This document shows, in pieces, positions 12,484 through 31,744 of a stretch of DNA of 64,000 nt. The position numbers and the translations under genes are program-made. Under the pieces are notes generated by a model, which worked only from the letters and a program-made list of their open reading frames with translations, was not told where the DNA came from and did no database searches. Position 1 is the first letter of the stretch; each line of letters starts with the position of its first letter. Source of the stretch: a virus. Taxonomy: Duplodnaviria; Caudoviricetes. The stretch covers positions 4,634-68,633 of the IMG/VR virus record IMGVR_UViG_3300032233_001141; one strand, 5' to 3'.

Positions 12484-12489
12484 TGTTCT

Positions 12490-13419: not shown

Positions 13420-13425
13420 TTTTCT

Positions 13426-17132: not shown

Positions 17133-17462
17133 TTAATAGGAACCATAATCTATAGCATTATCTAAACTTCCGTCAGCCAAATCAATAAGTTGTTGTGGTT
17201 GTAAGTATTTATGAATATTATTATCTGAATCATATACTAATATAGAATTATTCTGCCTATTAGTTGGATCAACAGTTATATTTGATGAAATTACTGGAGC
17301 TGTTGGAGCAGTATTAATTTGAACTGATCCTGTAGTTGTTGAATTATTTACACCAACATTAATATTATTGGTATCATTAATTTGTGCAGATTTTTTGATG
17401 GTGGTATTTTTTACGCCAACATGAATATTGTTGGATGTAATTAATTTAACATCGTAGTTCAT
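17133..17462 (-). CDS. Hypothetical protein
   Basis: 109-aa ORF coupled to the upstream gene; ends IDYGSY, similar to the 544-aa protein end IDCGTY. Confidence 0.7.
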   Translation of the reverse strand: MNYDVKLITSNNIHVGVKNTTIKKSAQINDTNNINVGVNNSTTTGSVQINTAPTAPVISSNITVDPTNRQNNSILVYDSDNNIHKYLQPQQLIDLADGSLDNAIDYGSY

Positions 17463-17800
17463 GTTACTCCTGGAGAAACATAGAATAATCCTTCTATAAC
17501 TCTGGTTTTTATACCACCAAGATTAATTGGAGCAATTATCACGACATCATAGACATATCTTGGAGATGTCATCAATGCTGTTTGTGCTGCTGATAAAGCA
17601 ATTTTTATTTTTCCAGTGGCAGCATTTATAATCGTAGCAGTAATAATATTTTTAGTTGTATTTGTGTAACTTCTACTATATTTTGCTGTCAAAATAAAAG
17701 AAGTTAAATTTAGTGCCAATCCATTGTCTCCAGTTAAGGTAAGCTCGGCAGAAAAATCAGCACCCGCTTCTATATTAAAATTAATTGGTGTTGCTGCCAT
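17459..17800 (-). CDS. Hypothetical structural protein (Ig-like / BppU-like fold suspected)
   Basis: 113 aa; INFNIEAGADFS...GKIKIALSAAQT...RYVYDVVI...RVIEG...VSPGVT pattern is common in phage baseplate and fibre regions. Confidence 0.7.
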   Translation of the reverse strand: MAATPINFNIEAGADFSAELTLTGDNGLALNLTSFILTAKYSRSYTNTTKNIITATIINAATGKIKIALSAAQTALMTSPRYVYDVVIIAPINLGGIKTRVIEGLFYVSPGVT

Positions 17801-18123: not shown

Positions 18124-19137
18124 TTATGGAACAACAATAGTTACGTTATTACCACTATATGAATATGTTGTAGTAGCACCAGTAGTGGTATTGAGAATTC
18201 TGGCGAATCCGTTACCTCCTGTAGATGCTGGTAATCCACCTAGACCAATACCACCACCAGGATATCCTGCAGCACCACCTCCAGCATTGGATCTATATTC
18301 TCCTCTTTCATTGAGTCCGTTTCTTACATAAGTAGTGTTAATATATCCAGAACCGCCACCACCGCCCGCCATGGTGTTTGATTCGGAATATCCACCAGCA
18401 GAACCACCAAAGTATCCACCGCCACCAGCACCACCATAACCATTTACTCTAGAAGTTCCGCCCAATAGAGCTTGACCAGGAACGTTAGTGTTATCTGCAT
18501 CAGATGCTGCTTGATCTGGTGCAGAACCTTGACCGCCACCTCTACCTCTGTAGACTATTTTGTTTTCATATGGAGACTGCCCATCTTGTCCCACATCACC
18601 TCCCCCAGCACCACCAAAATTACCAACGTTGGCGCGAGAAGATCCTCCACCTCCTCCACCACCAGCAATCATTATAGCGTTTGCCTGTGAAACACTACCT
18701 AAAAACAATCCACTATATCCACCACCATTTGAACCATAACGGTTGTCGCTACCAGTTCTATTTGCTTGACCACCACCACCAAAACTTACTGAACCACCAT
18801 TAACTATACCACCTTGACCAACTTGTAAAATCAACGAAGCACCAGAAGTCAACCCAGAAACTTCTCCATACGCATATCCTCCTCCACCACCAGCTGCTCC
18901 GAAAGACCAACCACCTACAGTTCCTCCTCCACCACCAGCTCCCCAAAGTTGTACTATGAACTGAGAAGATGACGTTACTACGTCATTCCATCTTGAGTTA
19001 GCAAATATTTGAATACTTCTAGTAGTTGAATTATAAATTACTAACCCAGATTCTCCCGTAGGTCTAGATGCCGTAGCAAAAGATGGCAATACCAATCCTA
19101 AAGTGGTAGTTACTTTTGCTGCATTAAGAAATGACAT
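18124..19137 (-). CDS. Glycine-rich putative adhesin
   Basis: 337 aa; QLWGAGGGGG, AGGGGGYAYG and GGGGYFGGSAG motifs; N-terminal RPTGESGLVIYNSTT fibre-type linker; late promoter CATAAATA at 19163-19170. Confidence 0.75.
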   Translation of the reverse strand: MSFLNAAKVTTTLGLVLPSFATASRPTGESGLVIYNSTTRSIQIFANSRWNDVVTSSSQFIVQLWGAGGGGGTVGGWSFGAAGGGGGYAYGEVSGLTSGASLILQVGQGGIVNGGSVSFGGGGQANRTGSDNRYGSNGGGYSGLFLGSVSQANAIMIAGGGGGGGSSRANVGNFGGAGGGDVGQDGQSPYENKIVYRGRGGGQGSAPDQAASDADNTNVPGQALLGGTSRVNGYGGAGGGGYFGGSAGGYSESNTMAGGGGGSGYINTTYVRNGLNERGEYRSNAGGGAAGYPGGGIGLGGLPASTGGNGFARILNTTTGATTTYSYSGNNVTIVVP

Positions 19138-19213
19138 GGTGAATTTTTATATCCTTGTTCTTTATTTATGGTTGTAAACCTTTATTGGAACACTACTAAA
19201 ATATTAAAATTTT

Positions 19214-19645
19214 TTACTCTTCTGGTTTGGGGAATGATTGCTTTACAGTTTCAATCGCATTAATCCAAGAACCACCAATTAAATTTTCATTTTTTATATC
19301 ATGATACAACATATCTAATTGTTCTCCGATAGATGGGTATTCATCTTTGCGAAGATCTTTGTAAAGAACAGTTTGTTCGTAATTTTTATATGATGCTTCT
19401 GCAAATGCAAAACTATCATCTACATAATGCATTTGTTCTGGAGTTGCCAAATATCTTAAATTAACTCCATCACGAATTAAATCAATTTCAAATATGTTTC
19501 CTTTTACATAACAAGAATCAACCTCATTTAAATTTTCAGGCCATTCTAATGTGTTAGTAAATTCTCTACCATCAACAACAAAAGTATTGTCTCTTTTGAT
19601 ATAAAAATCGTATTTGTATCTAGGTTGTAAATCAGCTGGTCCCAT
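19214..19645 (-). CDS. Putative fibre assembly chaperone
   Basis: GGAGG RBS before the ATG at 19645; C-terminal YKDLRKDEYPSIGEQLDMLYHDIK...W..AI..VK..FPKP is shared with 20985..21308. Confidence 0.65.
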   Translation of the reverse strand: MGPADLQPRYKYDFYIKRDNTFVVDGREFTNTLEWPENLNEVDSCYVKGNIFEIDLIRDGVNLRYLATPEQMHYVDDSFAFAEASYKNYEQTVLYKDLRKDEYPSIGEQLDMLYHDIKNENLIGGSWINAIETVKQSFPKPEE

Positions 19646-19647
19646 AA

Positions 19648-20985
19648 TTACCTCCAAGTTTCTCCAGTGTATGCGTCGTGTGGAAAATTATTTGTATAAT
19701 AATCCGAAATCCTTTCGTAAGGATTATTTTGCTCTGCAGTTTCGGTATATGCTCCTCTGCAGTACATTGGATTTTCCGATCTGGTGTATAATCTAAGTCT
19801 TATTTGATATTGACCGCCATAATCTTGTCTAGCTACTTGTTGAACAATTTGTCTAGGAATATAACATCCTCTAGGAGATCCTCCATATAATCTATTTCGA
19901 TAACAATTTCCATATCTACCAATTTTATTTGGGGATAATCTCGTAGCAAATTGATTTAAATCATTATTTAAATCAAATAAAGTAACTCTGGGACTAGATC
20001 CATACCAACTACTTGCATGTTCTTGAAATACACAATAAACTCCATTAGTGATACTTGCAATAGGCAATCTAATTTCGCCATAATCTGTATTATTATTAAA
20101 TTGACACAACCCACCTTCATTCCAGTTAGATGTGTTCCATGTAAATCCAGCTCCACCATTCGAAGCCCAATGTAAATCTAATGGATTTAATGGACATACA
20201 CCATATGGATTGGGAGTTACTGAAATGCCAGATATCCATAAACGTCCAGAATCATTAGCTCCTCTGTGAACAGAAATATACAATTCGTTGTTGGCGTCTT
20301 TGTATTGTTCCACTTTATCTCTGGGAATACAAAAACCTAACCATTCGTGATATTGACAAACTTTTGCTGGTCCCTCTAATGGACCCAAATGGAACCAGTT
20401 TCCATTGCCTCCCTGACCTTCATTTCTTCTTCCTCCACATCTGTACTGCTGTACTCCAGCAGAGTTACAAATCCAAACATCAGGAGTCTGCCATCTATCA
20501 CCAGTAATTAATTCTAACCAAAACATATTGTGGACGTTTGGTGTAGCTGGAACTCTAAAATAAACATGGTTATTGGAAGATCCTGATGTATTATCACCAT
20601 CAACGCCAAACATCAATCTATAGTTCCATTGAGTGCTTGCGTAGGAACCAAAATCTGTTCCAGGTGATCCCCTAGTTAAAATTCGCCCAGAGAAAACTCT
20701 ATTCCAGTTTTCCCATTCTCCTTCCCAATGAATTGTTGGTTTTCCGAAAACTGCATTATCTCTTTGCATATCATCGGATTCAACCCATTCTCCAGATCCA
20801 TTAGCTCTGAGAATAGTTCTCCTTCCAGTAGTAGAAGCATCAACAAATTTTTTGGTTACTCCATTCGCTTGTACGGTAGATTGAAAATTCACATTCAATG
20901 GAACGTTTACACTGGAACTCGTGAGATCCATGGCGGTGGTGCCAGTGAGTGATTGAATTTGATCTACTCTAAGTATTCCAGGCAT
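19648..20985 (-). CDS. Putative receptor-binding / virion protein, Trp- and Asn-rich
   Basis: 445-aa ORF; N-terminal MPGILRVDQIQS resembles the starts of neighbouring accessory fibre genes. Confidence 0.65.
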   Translation of the reverse strand: MPGILRVDQIQSLTGTTAMDLTSSSVNVPLNVNFQSTVQANGVTKKFVDASTTGRRTILRANGSGEWVESDDMQRDNAVFGKPTIHWEGEWENWNRVFSGRILTRGSPGTDFGSYASTQWNYRLMFGVDGDNTSGSSNNHVYFRVPATPNVHNMFWLELITGDRWQTPDVWICNSAGVQQYRCGGRRNEGQGGNGNWFHLGPLEGPAKVCQYHEWLGFCIPRDKVEQYKDANNELYISVHRGANDSGRLWISGISVTPNPYGVCPLNPLDLHWASNGGAGFTWNTSNWNEGGLCQFNNNTDYGEIRLPIASITNGVYCVFQEHASSWYGSSPRVTLFDLNNDLNQFATRLSPNKIGRYGNCYRNRLYGGSPRGCYIPRQIVQQVARQDYGGQYQIRLRLYTRSENPMYCRGAYTETAEQNNPYERISDYYTNNFPHDAYTGETWR

Positions 20986-21308
20986 TATTGTTCACCTACT
21001 GTTGGTTTAGGAAATTTATTCTTAACATTATTTATCACCTGTCTCCATCCTTCATATCCTTGATGGTATAACACATCCAATTGATCTTCCATTGAAGGAT
21101 ATGCATTTTTTCGCATTCTTTGATATTCTAAATCATCGTATTTTTCTTGTAAACGTTGTTTTTCATTAATGATAGATTCCACACTTGGAATTAATGAAAC
21201 ATCGGTATTTAACCAATCAATCTGTTCTACTGAATCATCTTTAACAATAAATTGACATTGATTACATAGTGAACGAATTGCCTCGGAAGTTGAAATATTA
21301 TAATTCAT
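20985..21308 (-). CDS. Putative fibre assembly chaperone
   Basis: 107 aa; YQRMRKNAYPSMEDQLDVLY...VKNKFPKP. Confidence 0.65.
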   Translation of the reverse strand: MNYNISTSEAIRSLCNQCQFIVKDDSVEQIDWLNTDVSLIPSVESIINEKQRLQEKYDDLEYQRMRKNAYPSMEDQLDVLYHQGYEGWRQVINNVKNKFPKPTVGEQ

Positions 21309-21940
21309 GCGATAATCTCCATTGCAACTAAATTTGTAGTACTTGCCATATCAGAAGATCTATCGTTTATTCTTAGTGTGTTGATACCACCAGCCCAACT
21401 AGAACATGCAGCAGCTGCGTATGTGATTGGACTAGTTGTTCCAGCTAGATCTCTGTGTTGAATAAAAGAATTCCACATAAAACTATTTGGATCAGATTGA
21501 CCCCAGTAAATAGTTGATATAGCATTTGCTGAGTTAGTGTTATTTGATCCACCTATACGATTTCCATTTTTAAGAAATCCAAATGAAGACACATAAGTAG
21601 CACTATGATTAATCATTGACATCAATAGTATTTGACTAGTTGATCTTGTTGGTGTGATTGATACTTGCAATCCAAATGAAGCAATTTCTTGTGATGAAAT
21701 ATCATATCTTCCACCAACCAATTCCGCATAAACTACTTGAACTATTTGTCCAGTACTTCTTAATAGTGGTTGACCGCCACTATTTAGTAATGGCGTGGAT
21801 GATGATAATGTGATGCTCCCTGATGATAAACTAGAAGCAACAAAAGATCCTTCAATCGATAGAGTATGACCTGTCGGAATTCTTACGGTATTGCTAAAAG
21901 CCGCAATTCCTTGTATATCTCTAAGTGCTAATATACTCAT
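21305..21940 (-). CDS. Accessory fibre / adhesin-like protein
   Basis: 211 aa; first 17 aa identical to 22204..22824; GQIVQVV...ITPTRSTSQILL beta-domain. Confidence 0.7.
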   Translation of the reverse strand: MSILALRDIQGIAAFSNTVRIPTGHTLSIEGSFVASSLSSGSITLSSSTPLLNSGGQPLLRSTGQIVQVVYAELVGGRYDISSQEIASFGLQVSITPTRSTSQILLMSMINHSATYVSSFGFLKNGNRIGGSNNTNSANAISTIYWGQSDPNSFMWNSFIQHRDLAGTTSPITYAAAACSSWAGGINTLRINDRSSDMASTTNLVAMEIIA

Positions 21941-21956
21941 GTTACACTATACTCCA
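21890..21956. repeat. 67-bp direct repeat, copy 1 (copy 2 at 22774-22840)
   Basis: attgctaaaagccgcaattccttgtatatctctaagtgctaatatactcatgtta(c/t)actatactcca; one mismatch between copies. Confidence 0.95.
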
Positions 21957-22197
21957 CCGCCGCTCTTTCTTCTCTTTCTTTGCATGAAAGAATTTCAGCA
22001 GCAATTACAATATCTTCTTTAGTGCCAGAGATTGTTCCTCCTTCAGAAGTAATTCTTTCAACTTCTTGCAATACTATTTCCTCTATAGCAACTCTACATC
22101 TTTCGTATATAGCATTTTGAATCCATTCTTGTGGATCGTATGCGATATAGGAAAGTGCTTTATATTGTGCTTCAGTAAGTATAATTTTGTATTCCAT
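21937..22197 (-). CDS. Small acidic hypothetical protein (putative partner of the C1q protein)
   Basis: 86 aa; directly follows the C1q gene. Confidence 0.7.
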   Translation of the reverse strand: MEYKIILTEAQYKALSYIAYDPQEWIQNAIYERCRVAIEEIVLQEVERITSEGGTISGTKEDIVIAAEILSCKEREERAAVEYSVT

Positions 22198-22203
22198 AAT
22201 TTT

Positions 22204-22824
22204 TTAACCTAGTAAATATCCACAAAAATGCGAGTGTCCCATATAAATCACACCTCCAGATATATTTTGCCAGTCACCAACAGTAACATAATCATTGGCA
22301 TTTAATCTCCATATAACAGAAGCAGACCAACAGGTAGAAGTATTATATTGTGTTTGCATATTTTGATATGAACCACCATTAACTTTTATACTTAATCGGC
22401 CACCGCCACCATTATTAAATAAACTCACGGTAAATAAGTAAGTACCTGTAACAGGGCAAGTAAATCTACCACTTCCAGTATTAAAATGCCCTCCTACATT
22501 AAAAAAAGCATTATTGAATGGCAAATCTGATTGGTTTGTCAATGTAAAGTTTGCTTCCGATCCCCTAGCAGCAAACATAGGGTTGGCGGAGTTAGTTACT
22601 CTTCCCGAAGCATCAATTTGTAAAGCAGCTACTCCACTGGAATTTTGTATATTGGTTGCTCTTAAATTAGTAGCAGTTACAGTTGGGAAGCTTGCTGCAT
22701 TAGAAACATTCAACGTTCCTACAGTAGCGGTGCCAACAACATTTAAAGAATTTCCAGAAGGAATTCTAATTTCATTGCTAAAAGCCGCAATTCCTTGTAT
22801 ATCTCTAAGTGCTAATATACTCAT
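22204..22824 (-). CDS. C1q-like domain protein (putative adhesin)
   Basis: C-terminal PMFAAR...LPFNNAFFNVGGHFNTGSGRFTCPVTGTYLFTVSL...LNANDYV...HFCGYLLG matches the C1q/TNF-like pattern. Confidence 0.8.
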   Translation of the reverse strand: MSILALRDIQGIAAFSNEIRIPSGNSLNVVGTATVGTLNVSNAASFPTVTATNLRATNIQNSSGVAALQIDASGRVTNSANPMFAARGSEANFTLTNQSDLPFNNAFFNVGGHFNTGSGRFTCPVTGTYLFTVSLFNNGGGGRLSIKVNGGSYQNMQTQYNTSTCWSASVIWRLNANDYVTVGDWQNISGGVIYMGHSHFCGYLLG

Positions 22825-22840
22825 GTTATACTATACTCCA
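22774..22840. repeat. 67-bp direct repeat, copy 2
   Basis: Spans the end of the 2972-aa gene (WSIV-stop) and the first 17 codons of the C1q gene. Confidence 0.95.
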
Positions 22841-25800
22841 TGCGCCGCCATTGCTAATGGTGATTGTTACTCCATTATTTATCGTGATTGGTCCAGCGGT
22901 CATTGCATTTGTGTTTGCTGGTATGGTAATACTTTCAGAAATAGAATTTCTATTTGTTTTAAATATTCCATAACTATCTAACCATTGTCTATCACCATTA
23001 GCATATACCACAGATGGGTTTGCTCCAGATGTCAATGTTGTATTTTCAATATTGATACCTGTGTTGGAAACACCACCCACATGTAATGTATATGTGGGAT
23101 CTGCTCTATTGATACCAACTTTAGACAATCTATGAATATCTGTTCCGTTGGTTGATGCGGTCCATCTGGAAGCAACGAATGCTGCACCATTTTGATATAG
23201 GGTGCCGTCGAAGTTGACATTACCATTGATATCCAAAGCAAATGCTGCTATTGGTGAACCGTAAGTTGTGTTTGGTGTCTTGCGAACACCAACGGCACCA
23301 ACAATAGTTGTAGATGCTGGAGCAGCAAGAGTCTGTGACCCACTAACCACAAATGCTGGAGTTGTAAATGTTGCACCACCATCCGCAGTAGATGGGGTAA
23401 TTTCAAAACCATTATCAACAGAAATCTGATTACCAATACGGAAGTTTCTTCTAGTTGAAGATCCGAAGAAGAATAGTGGAGCACCTGAGTTATCATTAAG
23501 AGTATCAATTTCAAATCCAGTGGTTACTCTTGCCTTTCCTACAATATCTAAAGCATATCCAGACTGTGCCTCTTTTCCAATACCTACTTCTCCAGAAGTT
23601 AATATGGTTATTCTTCCAGAACCATTAGCAACAGTAAAGTTAGCATCAGTTGCTTGACCTGCACCAATGGCAAAAGTAGATGTTCCATTTAACATACCAA
23701 TAGACCATGGATAAACACCTTGATCGACTAAATTGATATATTGATTGTTTGTGGCGGTTCTAGTAATTCTTAGTAATCCATTATAACCATTATCTACAGT
23801 TCCATCGCTAACAGTTATCGCACCATTTCTTACATCTAATGCAGCTGTTGGGAGGAGGGTGAGTATACCAACACGATTGTTAGTAGCATCTACAAATAAT
23901 GTATTTGTATTAACTGTTAAGTTTCCTGTAAGTGTTGTATTACCAGTAACGCCAAGAGTTCCACCAACACTCAAGTTGCTGCTTACTCCACTGATGGTTA
24001 GCGAACCAGTCATGGTATCGCCTGTCTTCAATACGTTGAGAGAAGCAGCACCAGTCAAGCTAGCAGTAATTGTGCCAGCAGCAAAGTTGCCAGAAACATC
24101 GCGTAGAACAGCAGTGCTTACAACGTTAGTACTGTTGAATGTTACGTTACCAGCATTCCAGATAGCATTATTATTAATCGTTACATTATTCGCTGTTCCA
24201 GCAACAATGTTCAGAGAACCACTACCATCAGTAGAATTTCCTCCACTGGCAATCATTGCTATATTATAATTTGTTGCTGGAGAAGCACTGCTATTAAAAT
24301 AAATCGCTGGACTTGAAGCAGTATTATCTTTTCTTCCTAACCTAAGTCTAGCAGTACCAGCATCACTCAGTAAAGAAGCAGTTTCAATCGTTTGTGCTAT
24401 ATTTAAAGTATACTCTTGGAAAGGATATCTAACACTAGCAGTACCAATAGTTTGTGCTACGGCTGGAGCAGTGAAAGAACCAGAAATTAATACACCTGTT
24501 AGAATAGTATAATCTAATGTATCATCTGCATCATTATAGGTTTGAACATTAGTTAATGTAAGTGTTCCTTGAGCTTGAGAATTGACATCATATAGGTTAA
24601 CTTGTAAACCTGCCAGGAATGGACTTGTAGTTAAGACTAATCCAGATAGGTAAATATCATATACTGCACCAGCACCGCCAGTTGTATAAACTTTAATACC
24701 AGTATTAAAGTTTTTGGAACTCATGTAAGATGGTACTCTATTATCGCTAAGAGAACCGTAATTTATATTTCTAGCATCTTGATAAAAACGACCTTGGCGA
24801 TTATCTAACTTGTCTGCATCTAAATCTGTTCCTGGACCATCATTCAAGGAAGACCATACTTTGGCCCATGAACCATAACTAGCAACACCAGAACTCGAAC
24901 CACGAATCCACATGTTATTGTTATCGGTAAATGCTAGTTGTCTAACACCACCACCAGTAGAATCAGAACCACTACCAAAATTTCTTAAAGTTAGAACTAA
25001 ATGTTTTGTTCCGCCATCATCTAATCCATCGGAAGTATTATTTCTGGTATCAGATGTTATACCTTCAGCAGCAGCATTTGGGTTTGGAGAAGATGTTGGG
25101 TTATTGGTTGAAGTAATTAAACGCAACGTATTACCAGACTGACCTGAAATACCAATATTGTAACTTCCTGCTAAACGGTCAACTGATAATGTTCCAGCAT
25201 TTAGGTTACCAGCATTCAAGTAATACGCGCCCTGGGCACCATCAAGTAAGTCAGCATCTAATCCACTATCGGCACCAGTCTTGAGTGTTACTGAACCGTT
25301 ACCAGCAGCACCGATAGTGAATTGTGATTTTTGGAACCTAGCAACACCGACAGTTCCAAAAGCATCTGAACCAAGTGTTTGATCGGTTACTCGGAGAATA
25401 TCAATAGCGGTATTTGAATAATTTTTATTTGCCGTTGCAATTTTAGCGGCAAGAACAGCTCCAGAACCAGCACCTATTGATGTAGGCATTGGCGTAATAG
25501 TGAAATCGGAATTGTAACCCGATCCACCATTAGTTACAGTGACGGAAGTAATTGCATTACCAGCAACTGTGATATTTGCTTTTAATCCTGTTCCTGTTCC
25601 TCCAGACAATGTAACATCATAATATGTTCCATTAGTAAAACCAGACCCTGGGCTAGCAATAACAACTTTATCTATAAAATTGCCTATAGTGTAGGTAGAA
25701 TCTAATAATACTGGCGATGCTGGTCGTCTGAATTCAATAACTGTTCCTGCAGTTAAAGTTGCTGTTAGTGGAATACTAATAGTTACTGTTGATGTGCCAG

Positions 25801-28800
25801 ATGCAGTAACTATATTGCTAACAATAGTATTTGCTGCAATACCTGTAATTACAACTAATTCGTGATTTTTTAGAATATCAGCATTAGTTGTAAATAATAA
25901 TGTTTGAGAATTTTGATTAGCTGTTGCAGACAATCTTGCAAAATATCTGGTTTCAGTTCCTTTAATAGACTGCAATGCTGGAACGTAAGATTGATCTCCT
26001 CTTAAGAAAGTAAAGGAGTTTGCTTCCGAAGAATTATTTGCTAATCTAGTTGTAGCAATAACACCAGATGTAATATTATCTGCAGAAATTTGGTTGGATG
26101 ATAGTGATACCCAATTAGATGAAGTAAACGCAGATGTATTAACAACTCTACCGATATCAACTACAGTTGGAGTAGGTAAATTATTAGAACTGATTGTGTC
26201 GGTATCTAATATTTTTATATTATTTACTATAGTTCCATATAATCTACTTTCGATCAATACAGAAGCAGTTGCTGTTACACCGCTTCCACCAGGACTTGCA
26301 ATGTTGATAGATGGTTGAGTAGTATATCCTTTACCTCCAACAAATCCACCAAATGCAACTAGTGTTATAGTAACTACCTGACCATTTGCTATAGTTGCAG
26401 TAGCTGAAGCAGATACGGCGCCAGATTGTGGGTTTCCGCCACTTATAGTAACAGTTGGTGCAGTTGCATAACCGCTACCAGGAGTGAGTATATTGATTTT
26501 ATATACAACACCCTGTCTATATTCAGTTGCCTGAATTTGACCTCCTGATATAGATCCAGTAAAAATATTTCCGTTAGTAAATTGTAAATTGGTATCTACT
26601 GGGAATGCAACAAATAAACTAGTTAAATCATTATTTAAAATATACGATACTGAAGTATCAGATTGAATCGCAATATCACCAGCTAATGCACCTTCTAATG
26701 CTAATCTTGCTGCTGAGTTTGCAACAGTATATACACTGAATGGTCTAAGTGCAGGTATTTGATCAATTGAAATTTTACCAGAGTCTGTTAATTCTACAAG
26801 TGCTCTTGGAACAGCATTTGTAGAATATGGTTTGTTTAAATATGCACCAAGATTATTGGAAATGTAGTCCTTTACTGCTTTTTGAGTTGGAATTTTGCTG
26901 TCCGAAGAAAAACTTCCACCCAATGTATTAGAAGCATCAAATCCAGTAACAACAACATCGCCGCCTTTCAGTTTTAGGAACTCAACTTCAGAAATGGTAA
27001 CTGTACCAGTAAAGGTAATGTTACCAGTTCTGTTTTCAATACGTGCGAAGTAACCTACTTTGAAGTCACCAAGTTCATCTGTACCAGAGGTATATACACG
27101 ACCATAATTTTCGGAAACTTGTTCGTATGCTTCAATTTTTGTACCACCGTTTTCTGGTAGAGCATTGTAATCGGTTCCAGATCCAGAAAATTCCCAAGTG
27201 TGTCCCGAGGAGTTTACAATAGATGGTCTATGTAATTTAATTGTTTTGCCTACAAATTCTGCATTTGAATTTGCAACTACTAATCCTGTAGAAATTTTGG
27301 TAAAACTTGCTTCTTCGTTTAAGGTAATTGTTGCCGTAAATGGAGGACCAACAGTAACAGCACTTACTGCATCAACAAAGTATTCAATTAATTGATTAGT
27401 ATTTCTATAATCATTCCATTTGACAACATAATGCTCCAGAGGTCTTCTTCCTAATCCAGTTACAGTTAAAACCGTTTTTCCTGTAACCGAAGTAGTTACA
27501 TTAGTTATGGTGCCAATATCGAAAGAGTATGGATCTTGTCTAAATCCACGAGCTCTCAAAGCATAGATACCAAAGTTTGTAGCAGCGTTGGTGATAGAAA
27601 CATAACCACCAGAATCAGCGTATACACCATCAGCACAGAACAGTACGAAAACAGAAACTAACTGAGAATAACCATCATTGACTACTTTGTATCCAGTACC
27701 ACCAAATGAAACAATAGTGAACTGAGCGGCAACCATAGATTTACCCTGGTTAGGGTAAGATGCAGAACCATCTAATTCCAATCCTGGGAAAGGACAGTTT
27801 GGTTTGGATACCTTATCTCCATCGATTTCGCAACCGCCGCCACCTAAGAATGAGATAACAGAAGCGTTTTGAATGTATGGCGATGCCTCAATAATTGGAA
27901 GATCATTCCACAATCCTCTAGGAGTTATTCTCTCATCATTTGCATCATATAAAGTATTTTCTGGAACTGAAAGAATGCTATTAACATTAAATAATGTTCC
28001 GTATGTTTTTGTCGTAGCTCCTGGAATGACTGTTCCTGATAAAATAGTATCAAATAACGTTAGTTCAGTATCTATAGCACTAAAAATACCAGCACATTTT
28101 GAAGTATTTGTATCAGGAAGTATAGTAAGATCTATGAATAATGGAATTGTTGTTTCGTATACCCTAGTATAAGTTGCTCCATCTCCATTAGCACCTATCT
28201 TCCAATTACGCATTGCTAACTGCGCCAACTCTTTAACCTTGGTGTTAAATGCATAGCGAGTAGCGGCAAGCTCTCCAGCTGGAATACCTGTTAGTTGAGT
28301 TCCTGTGAAATATGCTTCAGCTGCTGTTACTATTCCAGCATTTCCTCCCAAAACAAGATCTCGGCAAAGATATGAAAGAACTGTGCGAATATCTCGCTTA
28401 CACTTTCTTTCTTGATCTGTGGTTAATCCTAATGCTGGATATAAATTTTTTGTAAATCCTAATGCTTCTGAAGCAATAAAGTCTGCATTACGTTGAATCA
28501 AATACGCAGCATCCATCTGTGTACCAGTACTTGAGCTACCAGCACCAGACGATCCATTAGTGATAATTGTATTGAAAATATATGCAAGGTTGTTGATAGA
28601 ATTTCTTACATTAGAACAAGCAGAATTTGCAGTGTCTTGAGTTACGGTACTATCAAAATATCTTGCTATAGCAGAATAAACTGGCGTGTATAATGCATCG
28701 GCAATTCTGCCGCCATAAACTTCAGTTACAGTGATGTATAAATCATTTGCTGTGCTAGTACCACCTAAAGAAGTTCCAAGAATTCTCATTCTGTCGCCAA

Positions 28801-31744
28801 CTTTATAGTTAGTTCCTACTGCATTTACTGTTACGGTGTATACTCCACCAGTTCTGTTGACATTAAATGTTGCTGTAGAACCAGTACCATTTATGTTAGT
28901 TGCGGTTAATGCAGTATATGATGCGGTGCCAGCAGCAGCAGTGCCAGAAGAAGAAACAGCAAATATTTGTGTGCTGTCAGTTCTCCAACGTCGCATTGCC
29001 AAAATACATAACTGTCTAGCAATTTCAAAAGCTCTTACAGTTTCTGCAATTTGATAACCAACATACCCTAATTGTGTTCCTGTAATGTAGTATTGCGCTG
29101 CTTCAGCAACGTTATAGTTGCCTCCATATTCTAAATCACGAATAATAGCACTAACAAAATGTCCTATATCTCTACGGCATTTTGTTTGATTTGGTGTTGT
29201 AAATGCTCTTTGAATATATACTGTTGCTCCAATTGAAGGCGAAGTTCCAGTTGTGTAAGTATTTCCTGATGTTAAACCAAATGAGGTTAACGATTGTCCA
29301 CTTAGTAATAAATATCTAACTTCAAATACAGTAGCACTAACTCTATTTGTAACTGTATAATCTGTATTAAAATTGCTATTTAAATTATTTTTATATAATT
29401 TTACATTATCATCTACATAAAAACCATGATTTCCTGTAGTAGTTATTCTTAGAATAACATAACCAGCATTTGCTCCAGATCCAGTAGTGGTTTGAATAGA
29501 TGTAATACTAAAATTAGGGCAAAACTCATCTTCTATTTGTAAATATGTTTCATCTTTAATAAATTCAATATTGTTTCTAATTAAATTGCAAGCATCTTGA
29601 TATCTTCTTGAAACATACGCAGGTTCTAAAAATTTGTTTGGAGAGTTTAAAAGAGATAGAGTTATATAATATGAATATGATTTTACAAAACCAGCATTTG
29701 GAATGTAATTATTTTGAACAAATGATCCTAATTTTTTAGGTATTACAAAACGTCTTGCTCTTCCGTCAGCATCACGAATAATTTTATAAATTCTTTGCTT
29801 TCCATTAAACATAGAAAGATCAGGAGATGAAGTTGGCAATCCACTGATTTCTACTTCTTGACCTTCTTTGAAATCATGAGTATTTAATCTTCCAATCAAC
29901 GGGTTGGTGTAAAATACTACACCATCTACAGTTGGATCTGATTGTAAAGAACCATCAATTCTTGTAATTGGTAAAGTTGTTGTCAGATCTTGATTGTGTG
30001 ATACTACTTCTCCTTCTGGTCGAATTGAAATTATATCTGTAGCAACGAATGAGTATGCTGATCTTAAAAATGTAAGTGTAGTAGTTCCATTCGCAGCCGC
30101 ACCACTAGTATGAACTGGTCCTGTGCTTCCAGAAACTCCTCCAGTAGTTACCGTATAAACATTAGTACCATTATAAATTATTTGTCCAGATGTATATGTT
30201 GTTGTTTGGGCCCATGGTCTACCAGTATTTCCAGGATAAGTAAATGTTTCGCCAGTTTGGAAAGAACCACTTAAAATTTCTACATCAGCACTTCCATTAA
30301 TATTGCCAGATTCAAAAGTTACTACTCTTACTACACCTACCGCGCCAGTGTTAACACCAGTTACATATTCATTTACAATTAATGCTGTTAATCCTGTGTT
30401 TGTTTGAAATGGTACTCTAATTTTATTGGGACCAAAAATTTGATGTCCTACGGGAAAACTTCTACCAAAATCACCGCCAGCAGTTGGATCATAATAAACA
30501 CGTTGTTTGTCATCAAAAGCACATGCGTAATCCCAAGTAGCAACGGGATCTCCATTGCTATCAATTTTATCTCTAAATGTTAGACCAGAAATATAATTTT
30601 TATCCGCAAACTTAAACATGTGTTTGCGAGGATTGTTTGGTCTTACAATTACAATACGCAGAGAGTCACCGACAACAGAGCAATCTGGTGGAATTGAAAT
30701 TGGGTTATCTTCGGTATACTCACCCCCAGAAACAACAACAGTTTCTTTAACTCCAACTGATTGAGAAGCAATTTGACATGCTTTCTTAATAGTTCTTACA
30801 GGAGCAACAGCCGAGCGACCATCATTACTATCATTACCGATCTGTGCAGAAACGTATACACGACCACCAACGTCATTGGTGGCGAGGTTTAAAACATACT
30901 CTGTGGTTGCGATTTTATCTGAATCGTCACCCAATTGAGGTGTAATGGAACGAGGAAATTTCATTTCCTCGTTATAAAATTCTAAATCAGCACTGTCTAC
31001 TCTATAACCAATATGTTTGAAAGTTACTGTTCCATTAATATCAACACCATCCACCCAGGTTGGTGGGGTATTTGCTGTTAGTCCAGTATTTAAAGCTTCG
31101 TAAATATTTGTTCCAAAATATCTGTAGTCTCCCTTTTGGACGGCAACATTTCCAGACCAAAGAGTTCCTGTATTGTTTGCATATGTTTTTAGACTGGGAG
31201 CTCTAAATTTTGTATCTGGAGTAACAAAATTTTCAATATCAAGGTTTAAAATTCTTGCAGTGTCTGAAATAATAGAAGTAGATGTTCTAATAGCGCCGCT
31301 AACATCTAATTCAAAATCAACAGTATCCAAAAATGCAGTTGCTGCAGCACCAGACCCGCCGCCGCCAGAAAAAGAAACACTTGGGGCGCTGGTATATCCA
31401 AGTCCTTGTTCGTCAATGATTACAGCAACTAAAGATCCCGAAGAAATAATAGCTGTACCTGCTGCTTGAACTCCATTTGAAGTTTGTGGTGGACCAATAA
31501 TTACTGATGGAGGACTAGAGTATCCACTTCCGTTACCATTGGGGTTAATAACAATTTTTTCAATTTTTTGACCTGTTCGGTTAATACCAACACGAGGAAG
31601 TTTTGTTGTAGTATCTAATTGAACTCTAACAACTTCTTTTTCATCAGACCCAATACCCGATCTAATACTAAGCTCATTAGTACCAATGAGTTTTTGATTA
31701 GATCCCTTGATTATTTGCTTATCGGCATTAAATTCTAAACTCAT
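22826..31744 (-). CDS. Giant tail fibre / tailspike protein
   Basis: 2972 aa; GRVYVSAQIGNDSNDG...RTIKKA beta-helix entry motif, GLDADLLDG and DLDADKLD fibre motifs, NTLFVDATNNRVGI repeats, C-terminal ITIPANTNAMTAGPITINNGVTITISNGGAWSIV. Confidence 0.8.
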   Translation of the reverse strand: MSLEFNADKQIIKGSNQKLIGTNELSIRSGIGSDEKEVVRVQLDTTTKLPRVGINRTGQKIEKIVINPNGNGSGYSSPPSVIIGPPQTSNGVQAAGTAIISSGSLVAVIIDEQGLGYTSAPSVSFSGGGGSGAAATAFLDTVDFELDVSGAIRTSTSIISDTARILNLDIENFVTPDTKFRAPSLKTYANNTGTLWSGNVAVQKGDYRYFGTNIYEALNTGLTANTPPTWVDGVDINGTVTFKHIGYRVDSADLEFYNEEMKFPRSITPQLGDDSDKIATTEYVLNLATNDVGGRVYVSAQIGNDSNDGRSAVAPVRTIKKACQIASQSVGVKETVVVSGGEYTEDNPISIPPDCSVVGDSLRIVIVRPNNPRKHMFKFADKNYISGLTFRDKIDSNGDPVATWDYACAFDDKQRVYYDPTAGGDFGRSFPVGHQIFGPNKIRVPFQTNTGLTALIVNEYVTGVNTGAVGVVRVVTFESGNINGSADVEILSGSFQTGETFTYPGNTGRPWAQTTTYTSGQIIYNGTNVYTVTTGGVSGSTGPVHTSGAAANGTTTLTFLRSAYSFVATDIISIRPEGEVVSHNQDLTTTLPITRIDGSLQSDPTVDGVVFYTNPLIGRLNTHDFKEGQEVEISGLPTSSPDLSMFNGKQRIYKIIRDADGRARRFVIPKKLGSFVQNNYIPNAGFVKSYSYYITLSLLNSPNKFLEPAYVSRRYQDACNLIRNNIEFIKDETYLQIEDEFCPNFSITSIQTTTGSGANAGYVILRITTTGNHGFYVDDNVKLYKNNLNSNFNTDYTVTNRVSATVFEVRYLLLSGQSLTSFGLTSGNTYTTGTSPSIGATVYIQRAFTTPNQTKCRRDIGHFVSAIIRDLEYGGNYNVAEAAQYYITGTQLGYVGYQIAETVRAFEIARQLCILAMRRWRTDSTQIFAVSSSGTAAAGTASYTALTATNINGTGSTATFNVNRTGGVYTVTVNAVGTNYKVGDRMRILGTSLGGTSTANDLYITVTEVYGGRIADALYTPVYSAIARYFDSTVTQDTANSACSNVRNSINNLAYIFNTIITNGSSGAGSSSTGTQMDAAYLIQRNADFIASEALGFTKNLYPALGLTTDQERKCKRDIRTVLSYLCRDLVLGGNAGIVTAAEAYFTGTQLTGIPAGELAATRYAFNTKVKELAQLAMRNWKIGANGDGATYTRVYETTIPLFIDLTILPDTNTSKCAGIFSAIDTELTLFDTILSGTVIPGATTKTYGTLFNVNSILSVPENTLYDANDERITPRGLWNDLPIIEASPYIQNASVISFLGGGGCEIDGDKVSKPNCPFPGLELDGSASYPNQGKSMVAAQFTIVSFGGTGYKVVNDGYSQLVSVFVLFCADGVYADSGGYVSITNAATNFGIYALRARGFRQDPYSFDIGTITNVTTSVTGKTVLTVTGLGRRPLEHYVVKWNDYRNTNQLIEYFVDAVSAVTVGPPFTATITLNEEASFTKISTGLVVANSNAEFVGKTIKLHRPSIVNSSGHTWEFSGSGTDYNALPENGGTKIEAYEQVSENYGRVYTSGTDELGDFKVGYFARIENRTGNITFTGTVTISEVEFLKLKGGDVVVTGFDASNTLGGSFSSDSKIPTQKAVKDYISNNLGAYLNKPYSTNAVPRALVELTDSGKISIDQIPALRPFSVYTVANSAARLALEGALAGDIAIQSDTSVSYILNNDLTSLFVAFPVDTNLQFTNGNIFTGSISGGQIQATEYRQGVVYKINILTPGSGYATAPTVTISGGNPQSGAVSASATATIANGQVVTITLVAFGGFVGGKGYTTQPSINIASPGGSGVTATASVLIESRLYGTIVNNIKILDTDTISSNNLPTPTVVDIGRVVNTSAFTSSNWVSLSSNQISADNITSGVIATTRLANNSSEANSFTFLRGDQSYVPALQSIKGTETRYFARLSATANQNSQTLLFTTNADILKNHELVVITGIAANTIVSNIVTASGTSTVTISIPLTATLTAGTVIEFRRPASPVLLDSTYTIGNFIDKVVIASPGSGFTNGTYYDVTLSGGTGTGLKANITVAGNAITSVTVTNGGSGYNSDFTITPMPTSIGAGSGAVLAAKIATANKNYSNTAIDILRVTDQTLGSDAFGTVGVARFQKSQFTIGAAGNGSVTLKTGADSGLDADLLDGAQGAYYLNAGNLNAGTLSVDRLAGSYNIGISGQSGNTLRLITSTNNPTSSPNPNAAAEGITSDTRNNTSDGLDDGGTKHLVLTLRNFGSGSDSTGGGVRQLAFTDNNNMWIRGSSSGVASYGSWAKVWSSLNDGPGTDLDADKLDNRQGRFYQDARNINYGSLSDNRVPSYMSSKNFNTGIKVYTTGGAGAVYDIYLSGLVLTTSPFLAGLQVNLYDVNSQAQGTLTLTNVQTYNDADDTLDYTILTGVLISGSFTAPAVAQTIGTASVRYPFQEYTLNIAQTIETASLLSDAGTARLRLGRKDNTASSPAIYFNSSASPATNYNIAMIASGGNSTDGSGSLNIVAGTANNVTINNNAIWNAGNVTFNSTNVVSTAVLRDVSGNFAAGTITASLTGAASLNVLKTGDTMTGSLTISGVSSNLSVGGTLGVTGNTTLTGNLTVNTNTLFVDATNNRVGILTLLPTAALDVRNGAITVSDGTVDNGYNGLLRITRTATNNQYINLVDQGVYPWSIGMLNGTSTFAIGAGQATDANFTVANGSGRITILTSGEVGIGKEAQSGYALDIVGKARVTTGFEIDTLNDNSGAPLFFFGSSTRRNFRIGNQISVDNGFEITPSTADGGATFTTPAFVVSGSQTLAAPASTTIVGAVGVRKTPNTTYGSPIAAFALDINGNVNFDGTLYQNGAAFVASRWTASTNGTDIHRLSKVGINRADPTYTLHVGGVSNTGINIENTTLTSGANPSVVYANGDRQWLDSYGIFKTNRNSISESITIPANTNAMTAGPITINNGVTITISNGGAWSIV

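What the first reader, a model, noticed from the sequence alone, without database searches (positions are those of the whole stretch)
21890..22840. C1q adhesin cassette bounded by 67-bp direct repeats, with a fossil of the fibre gene end
Seen: 21890-21956 and 22774-22840 are 66/67 identical. Copy 2 contains the true end of the giant fibre gene (TGG AGT ATA GTA TAA = WSIV-stop) plus the first 17 codons of the C1q gene. Copy 1 retains TGG AGT ATA GTG TAA, now read in another frame as the end of the 86-aa gene (VEYSVT-stop), plus the same 17 codons of the 211-aa gene. Inference: one recombination between the repeats would excise or amplify the 884-bp C1q + partner cassette while keeping the fibre gene, the spacing and the next N-terminus intact. 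This is a simple accordion mechanism for receptor switching and shows how the array grew.
Basis: partly seen in the sequence, partly recalled or inferred. Interest (0 to 1): 0.7.

Follow-up and report, generated by a model that had tools for sequence, protein, structure and literature searches.

The report
Stacked tail-fibre tip cassettes, recombination scar
A freshwater T4-like phage carries two different receptor-binding tip genes behind its giant tail-fibre gene, and a duplicated 67-base junction marks where the second cassette was spliced in; related phages in other lakes carry only one cassette or the other.

Summary
In detail: 21890-21956 and 22774-22840 are 66/67 identical. Each copy holds 16 nt that match the giant fibre gene's last four codons plus stop, then the first 17 codons of a tip gene.

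The two tip proteins share only their N-terminal 32 aa. One head is C1q. The other is predicted to be a TNF-like jelly roll.

Contigs from other lakes show both single-cassette forms. One skips exactly the 884 bp, so the fibre runs straight into the 211-aa gene. The other has fibre, C1q and a 91-aa partner but no 211-aa gene. That 91-aa protein matches the window's 86-aa protein for residues 1-75 and then has a native tail. So the window's gene lost its tail at the splice and now ends in the fibre fossil.

The best reading is an illegitimate crossover that stacked two alternative cassettes. The repeat is the scar, and it also carries the tip gene's ribosome-binding site.

The repeats could delete the C1q cassette, but an active accordion is not shown. 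The 884-bp-less form is 4-5% diverged, the source run shows no depth drop, and no amplification was seen.

By-product: 86-aa family genes sit directly after C1q-headed genes in 74 of 78 loci.

The parts
22826..31744 (-). Giant tail-fibre gene (2972 aa), ending ...NGGAWSIV-stop.
   Evidence: ORF. Its 3' end matches annotated tail fiber genes of S-CAM4, ACG-2014j and P-HM2. It has no Pfam hit.
22774..22840 (-). Repeat copy 2 (J2): the fibre's last 4 codons, stop, 1 nt, and codons 1-17 of the C1q tip gene. It contains GGAG 10 nt before the ATG.
22204..22824 (-). 206-aa tip protein. It has an N-terminal anchor (aa 1-32) and a C1q head (aa 92-205).
   Evidence: PF00386 at E 1.9e-14, 54.4 bits against a cut-off of 23.7. 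The anchor is shared with the 211-aa protein, 23/32 identical.
21937..22197 (-). 86-aa partner gene of the C1q head. The conserved core is aa 1-75; the last 11 aa are encoded by filler plus the fibre fossil.
   Evidence: 80 homologues; alignment A1. The 91-aa form on the 3740-nt contig is identical for aa 1-75 and then has a different tail. It follows a C1q-headed gene in 74 of 78 loci.
21957..21972 (-). 16 nt of filler at the splice. It is not homologous to the C1q-only form and lies outside the repeat. It contains a tandem copy of AAGAAAGAG, and a GCGGCG that resembles the fibre's GGCGGCG.
   Evidence: Joint at 21973; alignment; protein break after residue 75.
21890..21956 (-). Repeat copy 1 (J1). 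21941-21956 is the fossil of a fibre gene end (TGGAGTATAGTGTAAC), now the 3' end of the 86-aa gene and the ribosome-binding site of the 211-aa gene. 21890-21940 holds codons 1-17 of the 211-aa gene.
21305..21940 (-). 211-aa tip protein with the same N-terminal anchor and a different head (aa ~60-210), predicted to be a TNF-like jelly roll.
   Evidence: phrog_7459 at E 2.3e-24 and phrog_6942 'tail fiber protein'. AF2 model with pLDDT 85.5. Foldseek matches Pgp3 C-terminal domain at E 1e-5 and the TNF-like lectin PLTL at E 1.3e-4, TM 0.64-0.69 normalised by target.
20985..21308 (-). 107-aa small partner gene of the second cassette. Its last 53 nt (20985-21037) are also present in the C1q-only form, directly before the 445-aa gene.
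   Evidence: phrog_9114 at E 7e-25; joint at 21037.
19648..20985 (-). 445-aa fibre-like protein, probably the third tip. It is present in all three arrangements.
   Evidence: ORF. It is covered by the contigs of X1, X2 and X3. It has no Pfam or PHROG hit.
19214..19657 (-). 147-aa small gene whose C-terminus is related to that of the 107-aa protein.
   Evidence: phrog_9114 at E 2.9e-13 and phrog_1787 at E 1.2e-11.

Best explanation
The window is the tail and baseplate module of a freshwater T4-like myovirus related to cyanomyoviruses. Behind the giant fibre gene lie 'tip + small partner' cassettes.

Each tip protein starts with the same N-terminal anchor. I infer that this anchor is the part that mounts the tip on the virion. 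The tip gene's ribosome-binding site (GGAG) lies inside the fibre gene's last codons.

In the population there are haplotypes with fibre|211+107 and with fibre|C1q+91. A non-homologous crossover between two such genomes cut the 91-aa gene after codon 75 and joined it, via 16 nt of filler, to a point just upstream of another genome's fibre stop codon. The product is the window's arrangement: fibre|C1q+86|211+107.

The 67-bp direct repeat is therefore the duplicated 'fibre end + RBS + first 17 codons' junction. It is near-identical because both parents already shared that segment. Identity ends at codon 17/18 because that is the breakpoint of the earlier head swap.

Shown: the anatomy, the three arrangements, the truncated and re-tailed 86-aa gene, and the out-of-frame fibre fossil. 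Inferred: the order of events, co-infection as the setting, that both tips are mounted on the particle and widen or shift host range, and that the 86-aa protein assists the C1q head.

The repeats can in principle delete the C1q cassette precisely. That is a consequence of the scar, not a demonstrated switch.
For: - Repeat and frames.
- The tips share only aa 1-32. The heads are C1q and a TNF-like fold.
- In relatives, the fibre's 3' end and the start of the next gene lie together: S-CAM4, P-HM2 and IMG/VR loci. In 20 of the 21 loci examined the fibre ends W-x-[IV]-[VI]-stop. This gives the direction of copying.
- Run X3 has one 8981-nt contig, depth 60, laid on 19000-21945 and continuing without extra letters at 22830-25000. 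This is an exact 884-bp skip. No contig covers the cassette in that run.
- Run X2 has one 3740-nt contig laid on 19000-21037 and 21973-22988, with 65 other letters between.
- That contig's proteins are a 206-aa C1q tip with the same first 17 aa, and a 91-aa partner identical to the window's for aa 1-75, then TDQLISSENSEQTSES instead of EERAAVEYSVT.
- The family alignment shows that the conserved core ends at about residue 75-76 and that tails vary.
- The anchor start MSILALRDIQGIAAFSN occurs with either head. It is found in 7 of 13 full-length members of the 211-aa cluster and in 3 of 3 members of the window's C1q cluster. Other members have 1-3 substitutions there. So the 17 codons are not invariant by constraint.
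- The tandem form occurs on two contigs, of 68,633 and 68,086 nt.
- No recombinase or reverse transcriptase was found among the 35 ORFs scanned.
Against: - I could not read the letters of the X2 and X3 contigs. The parent or product status of X3 therefore rests on indirect signs: the divergence of 4.2% and 4.9%, and the joint being placed so that X3 carries the copy-1 (GTG) variant.
- That variant is polymorphic. The 68,086-nt contig's tail ..YSIT implies GTA in its fossil, so it is a weak marker.
- X2 and X3 are not the actual parents. The window's fibre is closer to X3's (4.9% different) than to X2's (about 10%), although the model takes the left part from a C1q-type genome. Further recombination must be assumed.
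- The origin of the 16-nt filler is unclear.
- Nothing tested here shows that the anchor binds the fibre, or that both tips are on the virion.
Confidence: 0.78

Rival explanations
1. Active accordion. Recombination between the two 67-bp repeats happens often enough within populations to remove or multiply the C1q cassette, and so serves as a host-range switch.
For: - A natural genome lacks exactly the 884 bp (X3).
- 55 nt of perfect and 66/67 overall identity may suffice for homologous recombination in T4-like phages. The threshold of about 50 bp for T4 is recalled, not checked here.
- The one mismatch differs between the two tandem-type contigs, which would fit occasional conversion between the copies.
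- The collapsed 55-nt repeat contig in the source run has depth 36.7 against about 15 for the flanks, which is 2.4x rather than 2.0x.
Against: - X3 differs by 4.2% and 4.9% on its flanks, so it is not a recent derivative.
- In the source run the cassette contig has the same depth as the flanks (14.7 versus 15.8 and 14.8). No joint across the repeats is reported there.
- No amplified form was seen in any of the 4 runs laid.
- These are contigs, which drop rare variants, so low-frequency events cannot be excluded.
- The C1q-only form cannot arise this way.
Confidence: 0.15
2. The identity reflects purifying selection alone, on the ribosome-binding site, translation start and N-terminal anchor, acting on two old paralogues. 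No recent common origin of the 67 nt is needed.
For: The segment does hold the GGAG and the anchor's first 17 codons. Anchors of this type are conserved at the protein level in S-CAM4, P-HM2, L005 and L008.
Against: - There are 0 synonymous differences in 51 coding nt, while the next 45 nt are 24/45 identical.
- The 16 upstream nt are read in a different frame in copy 1 and still match 15/16.
- Close relatives of both genes vary at 1-3 of the 17 residues.
- More distant relatives have only 41-54 of 67 nt identical in this segment.
Confidence: 0.03
3. Assembly artefact. Two co-occurring haplotypes (C1q-only and 211-only) were threaded in tandem through the shared repeat.
For: In the source run Logan's contigs break at the repeat, so those contigs alone do not fix the order of the pieces.
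Against: - The joint between the 86-aa gene, the filler and the fossil exists inside a single contig with 0 differences. It is absent from both single-cassette forms.
- All three pieces have equal depth.
- A second contig (68,086 nt), with its own substitutions, encodes the same fossil-tailed protein.
- A 67-nt repeat is shorter than ordinary reads.
Confidence: 0.03

Closest known systems
T-even phage distal fibre module: gene 36, then gene 37 with its downstream gp38, where adhesin parts are exchanged by recombination and small duplications change host range (Tetart et al. 1996). The work is recalled; I saw the reference only in the reference list of PMC2248197.
   Same: The gene order is fibre segment, then tip protein, then small partner gene. 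The N-terminal joining part is conserved and the distal part is variable. Recombination is the source of new specificities.
   Different: Here two complete tips with unrelated heads are stacked in tandem, each with its own partner. The splice left a displaced, out-of-frame copy of the upstream gene's end. No sequence relation to gp37 or gp38 was found.
Dual-tailspike podoviruses (K1-5, K1E, K5, SP6), in which alternative tail genes are preceded by a shared upstream sequence.
   Same: Alternative or additional receptor-binding genes sit behind a common junction sequence, so cassettes can be swapped or added. One phage can carry two specificities.
   Different: The phage group, proteins and junction are different. 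Here the shared junction includes the previous gene's stop region and 17 codons of the tip itself.
C1q-domain putative receptor-binding proteins in 'metaviromic islands' of marine phages (PMC3909814, passages read) and in cryoconite phages (PMC7468147, passages read).
   Same: A C1q head sits on a protein encoded next to the tail fibre gene. The N-terminal part is conserved and the head is variable among co-occurring lineages. Several variants occur in nature.
   Different: In the passages I read, those papers describe variable recruitment and allelic variants. They do not describe a stacked second cassette, a duplicated junction with a fibre-gene fossil, or a conserved small partner gene.
Xanthomonas phage OP1, Xp10 and Xop411 tail-fibre domain duplication and loss, with short direct repeats at domain borders (PMC2248197, passages read).
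   Same: Host-range-related copy-number changes in a fibre locus are associated with direct repeats.
   Different: There, small domains within one gene are duplicated and the repeats are 5-8 nt. Here whole two-gene cassettes of different content are involved and the repeat is 67 nt.
Poxvirus 'gene accordions' (K3L amplification and collapse).
   Same: Direct repeats flank a unit that recombination could remove or multiply.
   Different: Accordions are copy-number changes of one gene seen within evolving populations. Here no copy-number variation was seen, and the two units differ.

Membership tests
C1q domain (Pfam PF00386), for the 206-aa tip | Profile match above the curated gathering score. 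| tested here: met
   E 1.9e-14, 54.4 bits against 23.7; aa 92-205 cover profile positions 9-127 of 127.
C1q domain (Pfam PF00386), for the 206-aa tip | Trimeric jelly-roll head. | not tested
   No separate model of the head was inspected. In the complex job the three copies had pLDDT 81, but no interface was reported.
TNF-like / C1q-like jelly-roll fold, for the 211-aa tip head | Structural match of a confident model to solved TNF-like domains. | tested here: met
   The model has pLDDT 85.5, and above 90 over most of aa 70-210. Foldseek matches Pgp3 C-terminal domain at E 1e-5 to 3e-5 with target TM 0.65-0.68, and PLTL TNF-like lectin at E 1.3e-4 with target TM 0.69. There is no Pfam hit and no sequence similarity to the C1q head.
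Tail-fibre tip with dedicated downstream assembly partner (T4 gp37/gp38 or lambda Stf/Tfa kind), for C1q tip + 86-aa gene | A small gene immediately downstream of the receptor-binding gene, with conserved synteny. | tested here: met
   Of the best 80 of 291 IMG/VR loci with an 86-aa homologue, 78 have an upstream ORF ending within -80 to +200 nt (2 lie at contig ends). PF00386 matches at E<=0.01 in 74 of 78, and at or above the gathering score in 67 of 78. The loci are not all independent; for example L033-L038 and L074 are identical.
Tail-fibre tip with dedicated downstream assembly partner, for C1q tip + 86-aa gene | Sequence membership in a described chaperone or assembly family. | tested here: not met
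   No Pfam hit, no PHROG hit at E<=0.01, and no PDB sequence match with the family profile at E<=1. The nearest ESM Atlas clusters are unnamed viral proteins.
Tail-fibre tip with dedicated downstream assembly partner, for C1q tip + 86-aa gene | Physical binding of the partner to the head. | tested here: inconclusive
   Complex prediction gave weak support. The median score was 0.38 (runs 0.38, 0.47, 0.38) and the best of 3 controls was 0.00. The mark was reached by 116 of 157 solved complexes and 2 of 215 mismatches, but at 0.60 or under by only 18 of those 157 and by both mismatches. The runs agree in at least 70% of contacts, and the partner's pLDDT is at least 76.
Gene accordion (repeat-mediated expansion and contraction within a population) | Direct repeats flanking the unit. 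| tested here: met
   66/67 identity, 884 nt apart.
Gene accordion (repeat-mediated expansion and contraction within a population) | Copy-number variants of the unit within one population, including amplified forms. | tested here: not met
   In the source run the depths are 15.8, 14.7 and 14.8, with no repeat-to-repeat joint. No amplified form was seen in the 4 runs laid. These are contigs only, so rare variants would be missed.
Gene accordion (repeat-mediated expansion and contraction within a population) | A precise contraction product exists. | tested here: inconclusive
   X3 has the exact 884-bp-less arrangement but is 4.2% and 4.9% diverged. It may be the ancestral arrangement rather than a product.
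Site-specific tail-fibre switches (Gin/Cin invertible segments, shufflons) and diversity-generating retroelements | A recombinase with inverted repeats, or a reverse transcriptase with a template repeat. | tested here: not met
   The repeats are direct. None of the 35 window ORFs scanned matches a recombinase, integrase or reverse-transcriptase family.
T4-like myovirus structural module | Homologues of gp6, gp8, gp25, gp15, neck protein, gp18, gp19 and T4-type terminase, in one block. | tested here: met
   Pfam hits. The nearest DNA matches are Synechococcus and Prochlorococcus myoviruses. The record is 68.6 kb and estimated 35% complete.

The most novel reading that the evidence does not exclude
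The junction acts as a standard 'plug'. The tip gene's ribosome-binding site lies inside the fibre's last codons, and the first 17 codons encode the start of the anchor (aa 1-32). Any 'head + partner' cassette carrying this junction can therefore be swapped in by homologous recombination, or stacked by a sloppy crossover. The stacked phage would then mount two different TNF/C1q-fold tips on the same docking site, giving a dual or shifted host range.

Within this reading, the C1q head with its 86-aa gene is a pan-phage mobile adhesin module. Its small protein would be a new, undescribed class of head-specific assembly partner.
Probability: 0.3. Interest if true: 0.6.

Novelty: new member of a known kind. 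Interest (0 to 1): 0.42.

Why it matters
Phage host range evolves largely by exchange of receptor-binding modules, but the actual joints are rarely caught. Here all three states survive in nature: one cassette, the other cassette, and both.

The scar shows where and how the second cassette was added. It also shows why that product was viable: the fossil keeps the ribosome-binding site and the anchor intact, and the partner gene keeps its conserved core.

This gives a concrete and testable model for how T4-like phages of aquatic bacteria gain a second specificity. It also points to an uncharacterised small protein family that travels with C1q-type heads across many phages.

Tried and rejected
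- **Close relatives in IMG/VR.** Queries with the C1q tip and the 211-aa tip confirmed no relative. An exact 38-nt repeat core gave 0 matches. A degenerate pattern for GIAAFSNx[IV]RIP gave 0 matches in viral contigs and 0 in metagenome contigs. The 445-aa protein found no relative in metagenome contigs. These tools may leave out records very near the window, so the blanks say little.
- **tblastn of the 32-aa anchor against cultured phages.** Only 8 records from 3 phages matched, at E around 0.01. The query is too short to map the anchor's distribution.
- **Search of the large protein set with residues 1-40 of the C1q tip.** Only 2 hits.
- **tblastn of the C1q head against the 80 partner loci.** This undercounted (51 of 80). 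It was replaced by the Pfam scan.
- **Earlier notes of this scan.** None.
- **Run X5.** It has fragments over the C1q gene and the fibre junction and none over the 211-aa gene. The depth is 2-5 and holes prove nothing, so no arrangement is claimed.
- **A joint 21259 to 22937 in X1.** Depth 8.4, but only 24 letters on the shorter side, which is below the tool's reliability hint. It is left unexplained.
- **Is the junction exceptionally conserved across distant relatives?** No. It is 41-54 of 67 identical, against 129-143 of 200 for the fibre's 3' end.
- **Not tested.** The idea that the anchor docks on the fibre's C-terminus.
Full report
**What the window is.** The window is 64 kb of a 68.6-kb IMG/VR virus record estimated to be 35% complete. 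Its genes lie on the minus strand and form a T4-like structural block. Pfam finds gp25, gp6, a baseplate-wedge giant, gp8, neck protein, gp15, T4-type terminase, sheath and tube. The nearest DNA matches are Synechococcus and Prochlorococcus myoviruses at 67-77% identity over short parts. All 20 runs that hold words of the locus are metagenomes, and most are labelled freshwater, lake or river. The host was not determined.

**The observation.** The ORF order is as follows:
- a 2972-aa fibre gene (22826-31744)
- a 206-aa gene (22204-22824)
- an 86-aa gene (21937-22197)
- a 211-aa gene (21305-21940)
- a 107-aa gene (20985-21308)
- a 445-aa gene (19648-20985)
- a 147-aa gene (19214-19657)

The stretches 21890-21956 and 22774-22840 are 66/67 identical. 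A 30-nt core occurs twice, against none expected in 100 shuffles. In coding orientation, copy 2 is the fibre's last four codons (WSIV), its stop, one base, and codons 1-17 of the 206-aa gene. Copy 1 has the same letters with GTG for GTA. There they are read one frame off, as the last codons (..VEYSVT) of the 86-aa gene, whose TGA overlaps the ATG of the 211-aa gene. The single difference (21945 C versus 22829 T) is synonymous in the fibre's frame. Identity is 15/16 before the ATG and 51/51 in codons 1-17. It then decays over the next roughly 45 nt to background, and the upstream edge is abrupt.

**What the genes are.**
- The 206-aa protein has a C1q domain: PF00386, E 1.9e-14, above the gathering score.
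- The 211-aa protein matches phrog_7459 and a PHROG annotated as tail fiber protein.
- A model of the 211-aa protein built on 60 homologues has pLDDT 85.5. Its head matches TNF-like domains: Chlamydia Pgp3 C-terminal domain at E 1e-5, and the lectin PLTL at E 1.3e-4, with target TM 0.64-0.69.
- That head occurs at the C-terminus of proteins from 159 to 1532 aa; 201 cluster representatives match at E<=0.001.
- The two tips are alike only in aa 1-32, with 23 identical.
- So two unrelated-in-sequence heads, both of the TNF/C1q fold class, sit on one shared N-terminal anchor.
- The 107-aa and 147-aa proteins share a PHROG family (phrog_9114) of unknown function.

**Why the 16 nt are a fossil of a fibre gene.** In S-CAM4 and P-HM2 the annotated tail fiber gene ends ..AWSIL or ..AWAIV. 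It is followed at once by a gene beginning MSTLQVRNLQGLSNFNNE.. or MSTLSVHNLQGISTYSNK... I searched IMG/VR with the fibre's last 300 aa and found 26 loci. I examined the 21 whose match reaches the fibre's end and dropped 5 that do not. In 20 of the 21 the fibre ends W-x-[IV]-[VI]-stop, and one or several small genes with M-S/A-x-L/I-type starts and varied bodies follow. There are three in L009 and in L019-L023, and at least six in L024. The closest junction, in L005, reads TGGAGTATAGTATAA before its tip gene. So these letters evolved as a fibre C-terminus. Their copy in front of the 211-aa gene is out of context, in another frame, and must have been carried there. The fossil also supplies GGAG 10 nt before the ATG. 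A tip gene moved without the fibre's last codons would lose its ribosome-binding site. That explains why the viable product includes them (inference).

**Natural variants.** Contigs of four public runs were laid on 19000-25000.
- **X1 (the probable source).** It has the window's sequence in pieces that break at the repeat, with depths 15.8, 14.7 and 14.8. The 55-nt perfect repeat is collapsed into one piece at depth 36.7. The 889-nt middle piece (21915-22803, no differences) contains the joint between the 86-aa gene and the fossil.
- **X3 (a different study).** One 8981-nt contig at depth 60 covers 19000-21945 and continues, with no extra letters, at 22830-25000. This is an exact 884-bp skip, and nothing in that run covers the cassette. 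It differs from the window at 123 of 2946 and 107 of 2171 positions.
- **X2 (a third study).** One 3740-nt contig covers 19000-21037 and 21973-22988, with 65 other letters between. It therefore has the fibre end, the C1q gene and a partner gene, but not the 211-aa gene or most of the 107-aa gene.

The protein collection holds the products of a 3740-nt contig, which I take to be this X2 contig because the length and gene content match. One is a 206-aa C1q tip with the same first 17 residues. The other is a 91-aa partner identical to the window's 86-aa protein for residues 1-75, which then reads TDQLISSENSEQTSES where the window reads EERAAVEYSVT. Residue 75 ends at base 21973, exactly where the laid contig leaves the window.

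**Reading the splice.**
- The 86-aa protein belongs to a family with 80 hits at E<=0.01. Its conserved core ends near residue 75-76, and its tails are variable.
- The window's gene therefore kept its core, lost its own tail, and acquired 16 nt of filler (21957-21972) plus the fossil.
- The filler holds a tandem repeat of AAGAAAGAG, and a GCGGCG that resembles the GGCGGCG before the fibre's WSIV codons. This is suggestive of a microhomology joint but not conclusive.
- The tandem arrangement is thus derived from a C1q-type genome on the left and a genome with fibre followed by the 211-aa gene on the right. The two were joined non-homologously.
- The near-identity of the two junction copies needs no later homogenisation. 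The same first 17 residues occur with either head in single-cassette genomes: in 7 of 13 full-length members of the 211-aa cluster and in the X2 C1q tip. Other members differ at 1-3 of the 17.
- The end of identity at codon 17/18 is then the breakpoint of an earlier head swap by homologous recombination in the anchor.
- In X2, homology with the window resumes 53 nt before the 445-aa gene, inside what is here the end of the 107-aa gene. This looks like a second relic of the same kind. It suggests that fibre|211+107|445 is the older arrangement (inference; I could not read the contig's letters).

But several points weigh against an active switch:
- X3 is 4-5% diverged on both sides.
- Its joint is placed so that it carries the copy-1 variant. 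That fits a parental type, and fits a deletion product only if the crossover fell in the last 11 nt.
- The source run shows no loss of depth over the cassette.
- No amplified form was seen.
- The C1q-only form has a native partner tail and 65 letters that the window lacks, so it cannot be a derivative of the tandem form.

Some points leave the question open. The tandem form is present on two contigs that differ by substitutions. One of those changes the mismatch site itself (tail ..YSIT), so that marker is polymorphic. Contigs also hide rare variants, so occasional deletion remains likely in principle but is undemonstrated.

**The cassette's second gene.**
- I searched IMG/VR with the family alignment. 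This gave 291 confirmed loci, of which the best 80 were kept.
- In 78 of those 80 an ORF ends just upstream of the homologue. The other two are at contig ends.
- PF00386 matches that ORF at E<=0.01 in 74 of 78, and at or above the gathering score in 67 of 78.
- The C1q-headed proteins range from 161 to 1036 aa and have many different N-terminal parts. Some loci are duplicates of each other.
- The small protein has no Pfam, PHROG or PDB relative. Its nearest ESM Atlas clusters are unnamed viral proteins.
- A complex prediction (three copies of each protein, with alignments) gave weak support only. The score was 0.38 and the best of 3 controls 0.00. The mark was reached by 116 of 157 solved complexes and 2 of 215 mismatches, but at 0.60 or under by only 18 of those 157 and by both mismatches. 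The runs agree in at least 70% of contacts, and the partner's pLDDT is at least 76.
- I read the pair as a head plus a dedicated partner, probably an assembly factor. This rests on analogy with fibre chaperones and on synteny.

**Comparison with what is known.**
- C1q-domain putative receptor-binding proteins next to tail fibre genes, with a conserved N-terminus and a variable head, were described in marine 'metaviromic islands' (PMC3909814, passages) and in cryoconite phages (PMC7468147, passages).
- Repeat-associated duplication and loss within fibre genes is known from Xanthomonas phages (PMC2248197, passages).
- T4 adhesin duplications, the shared upstream sequence of the K1-5 group's tail genes, and poxvirus accordions are recalled, not checked here.
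- My five literature searches listed no paper whose title or abstract start describes this stacked arrangement or the 86-aa family. I read passages of only four papers, and subscription literature is not covered.

**Verdict.** This is a real and well-resolved example of a known process, modular exchange and stacking of phage receptor-binding cassettes. The scar is unusually legible and all three arrangements are documented in nature. It is not a new kind of system. The accordion reading is possible but unproven.

Noticed in passing
window 21937-22197; loci L031-L110: The 86-aa protein belongs to an uncharacterised family of 83-107 aa. In IMG/VR it lies directly after a C1q-headed gene in 74 of 78 loci. 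Those C1q proteins have very different N-terminal parts (T7-tail-like, collagen, BppL_N).
   Followed up: yes
window 20985-21037 (against the X2 contig): In the C1q-only form, homology with the window resumes 53 nt before the 445-aa gene, inside the 3' end of the 107-aa gene. This is probably a second relic of a replaced cassette.
   Followed up: partly
L019-L023, L009, L024 (downstream of the fibre match): Other myovirus contigs carry arrays of 3 to at least 6 paralogous small tip genes (about 185-250 aa) directly after the giant fibre gene. In L019-L023 a 107-aa gene follows the array.
   Followed up: partly
L005 5649-6230 (protein P0230): This 193-aa tip has an anchor (aa 1-40) close to that of the window's C1q tip, but its body matched the window's 211-aa tip protein over residues 1-136 (E 4.3e-5). 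Anchors and heads therefore seem to be shuffled at more than one breakpoint.
   Followed up: no
window 11563-14334 and 18124-19137: Three tandem paralogous genes of about 300 aa (306, 309, 302 aa); two of them match the Gly_rich_2 domain. There is also a 337-aa protein matching the ALK/LTK glycine-rich domain. Their function in the virion is unknown.
   Followed up: no
window 17133-17800: Two adjacent small genes (109 and 113 aa). One contains a 59-nt direct repeat 63 nt apart (17313-17371 versus 17376-17434, 75% identical).
   Followed up: no
window 21259 and 22937 (run X1): One contig at depth 8.4 in the source run joins these two places. What lies between is not known, and only 24 letters lie on the shorter side. 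It may be another related phage with a different cassette, or it may be noise.
   Followed up: no
window 32312-57925: Three further giant structural genes: 1500 aa; 2794 aa with DUF4815; and 3553 aa with a YHYH domain and a baseplate-wedge match.
   Followed up: no
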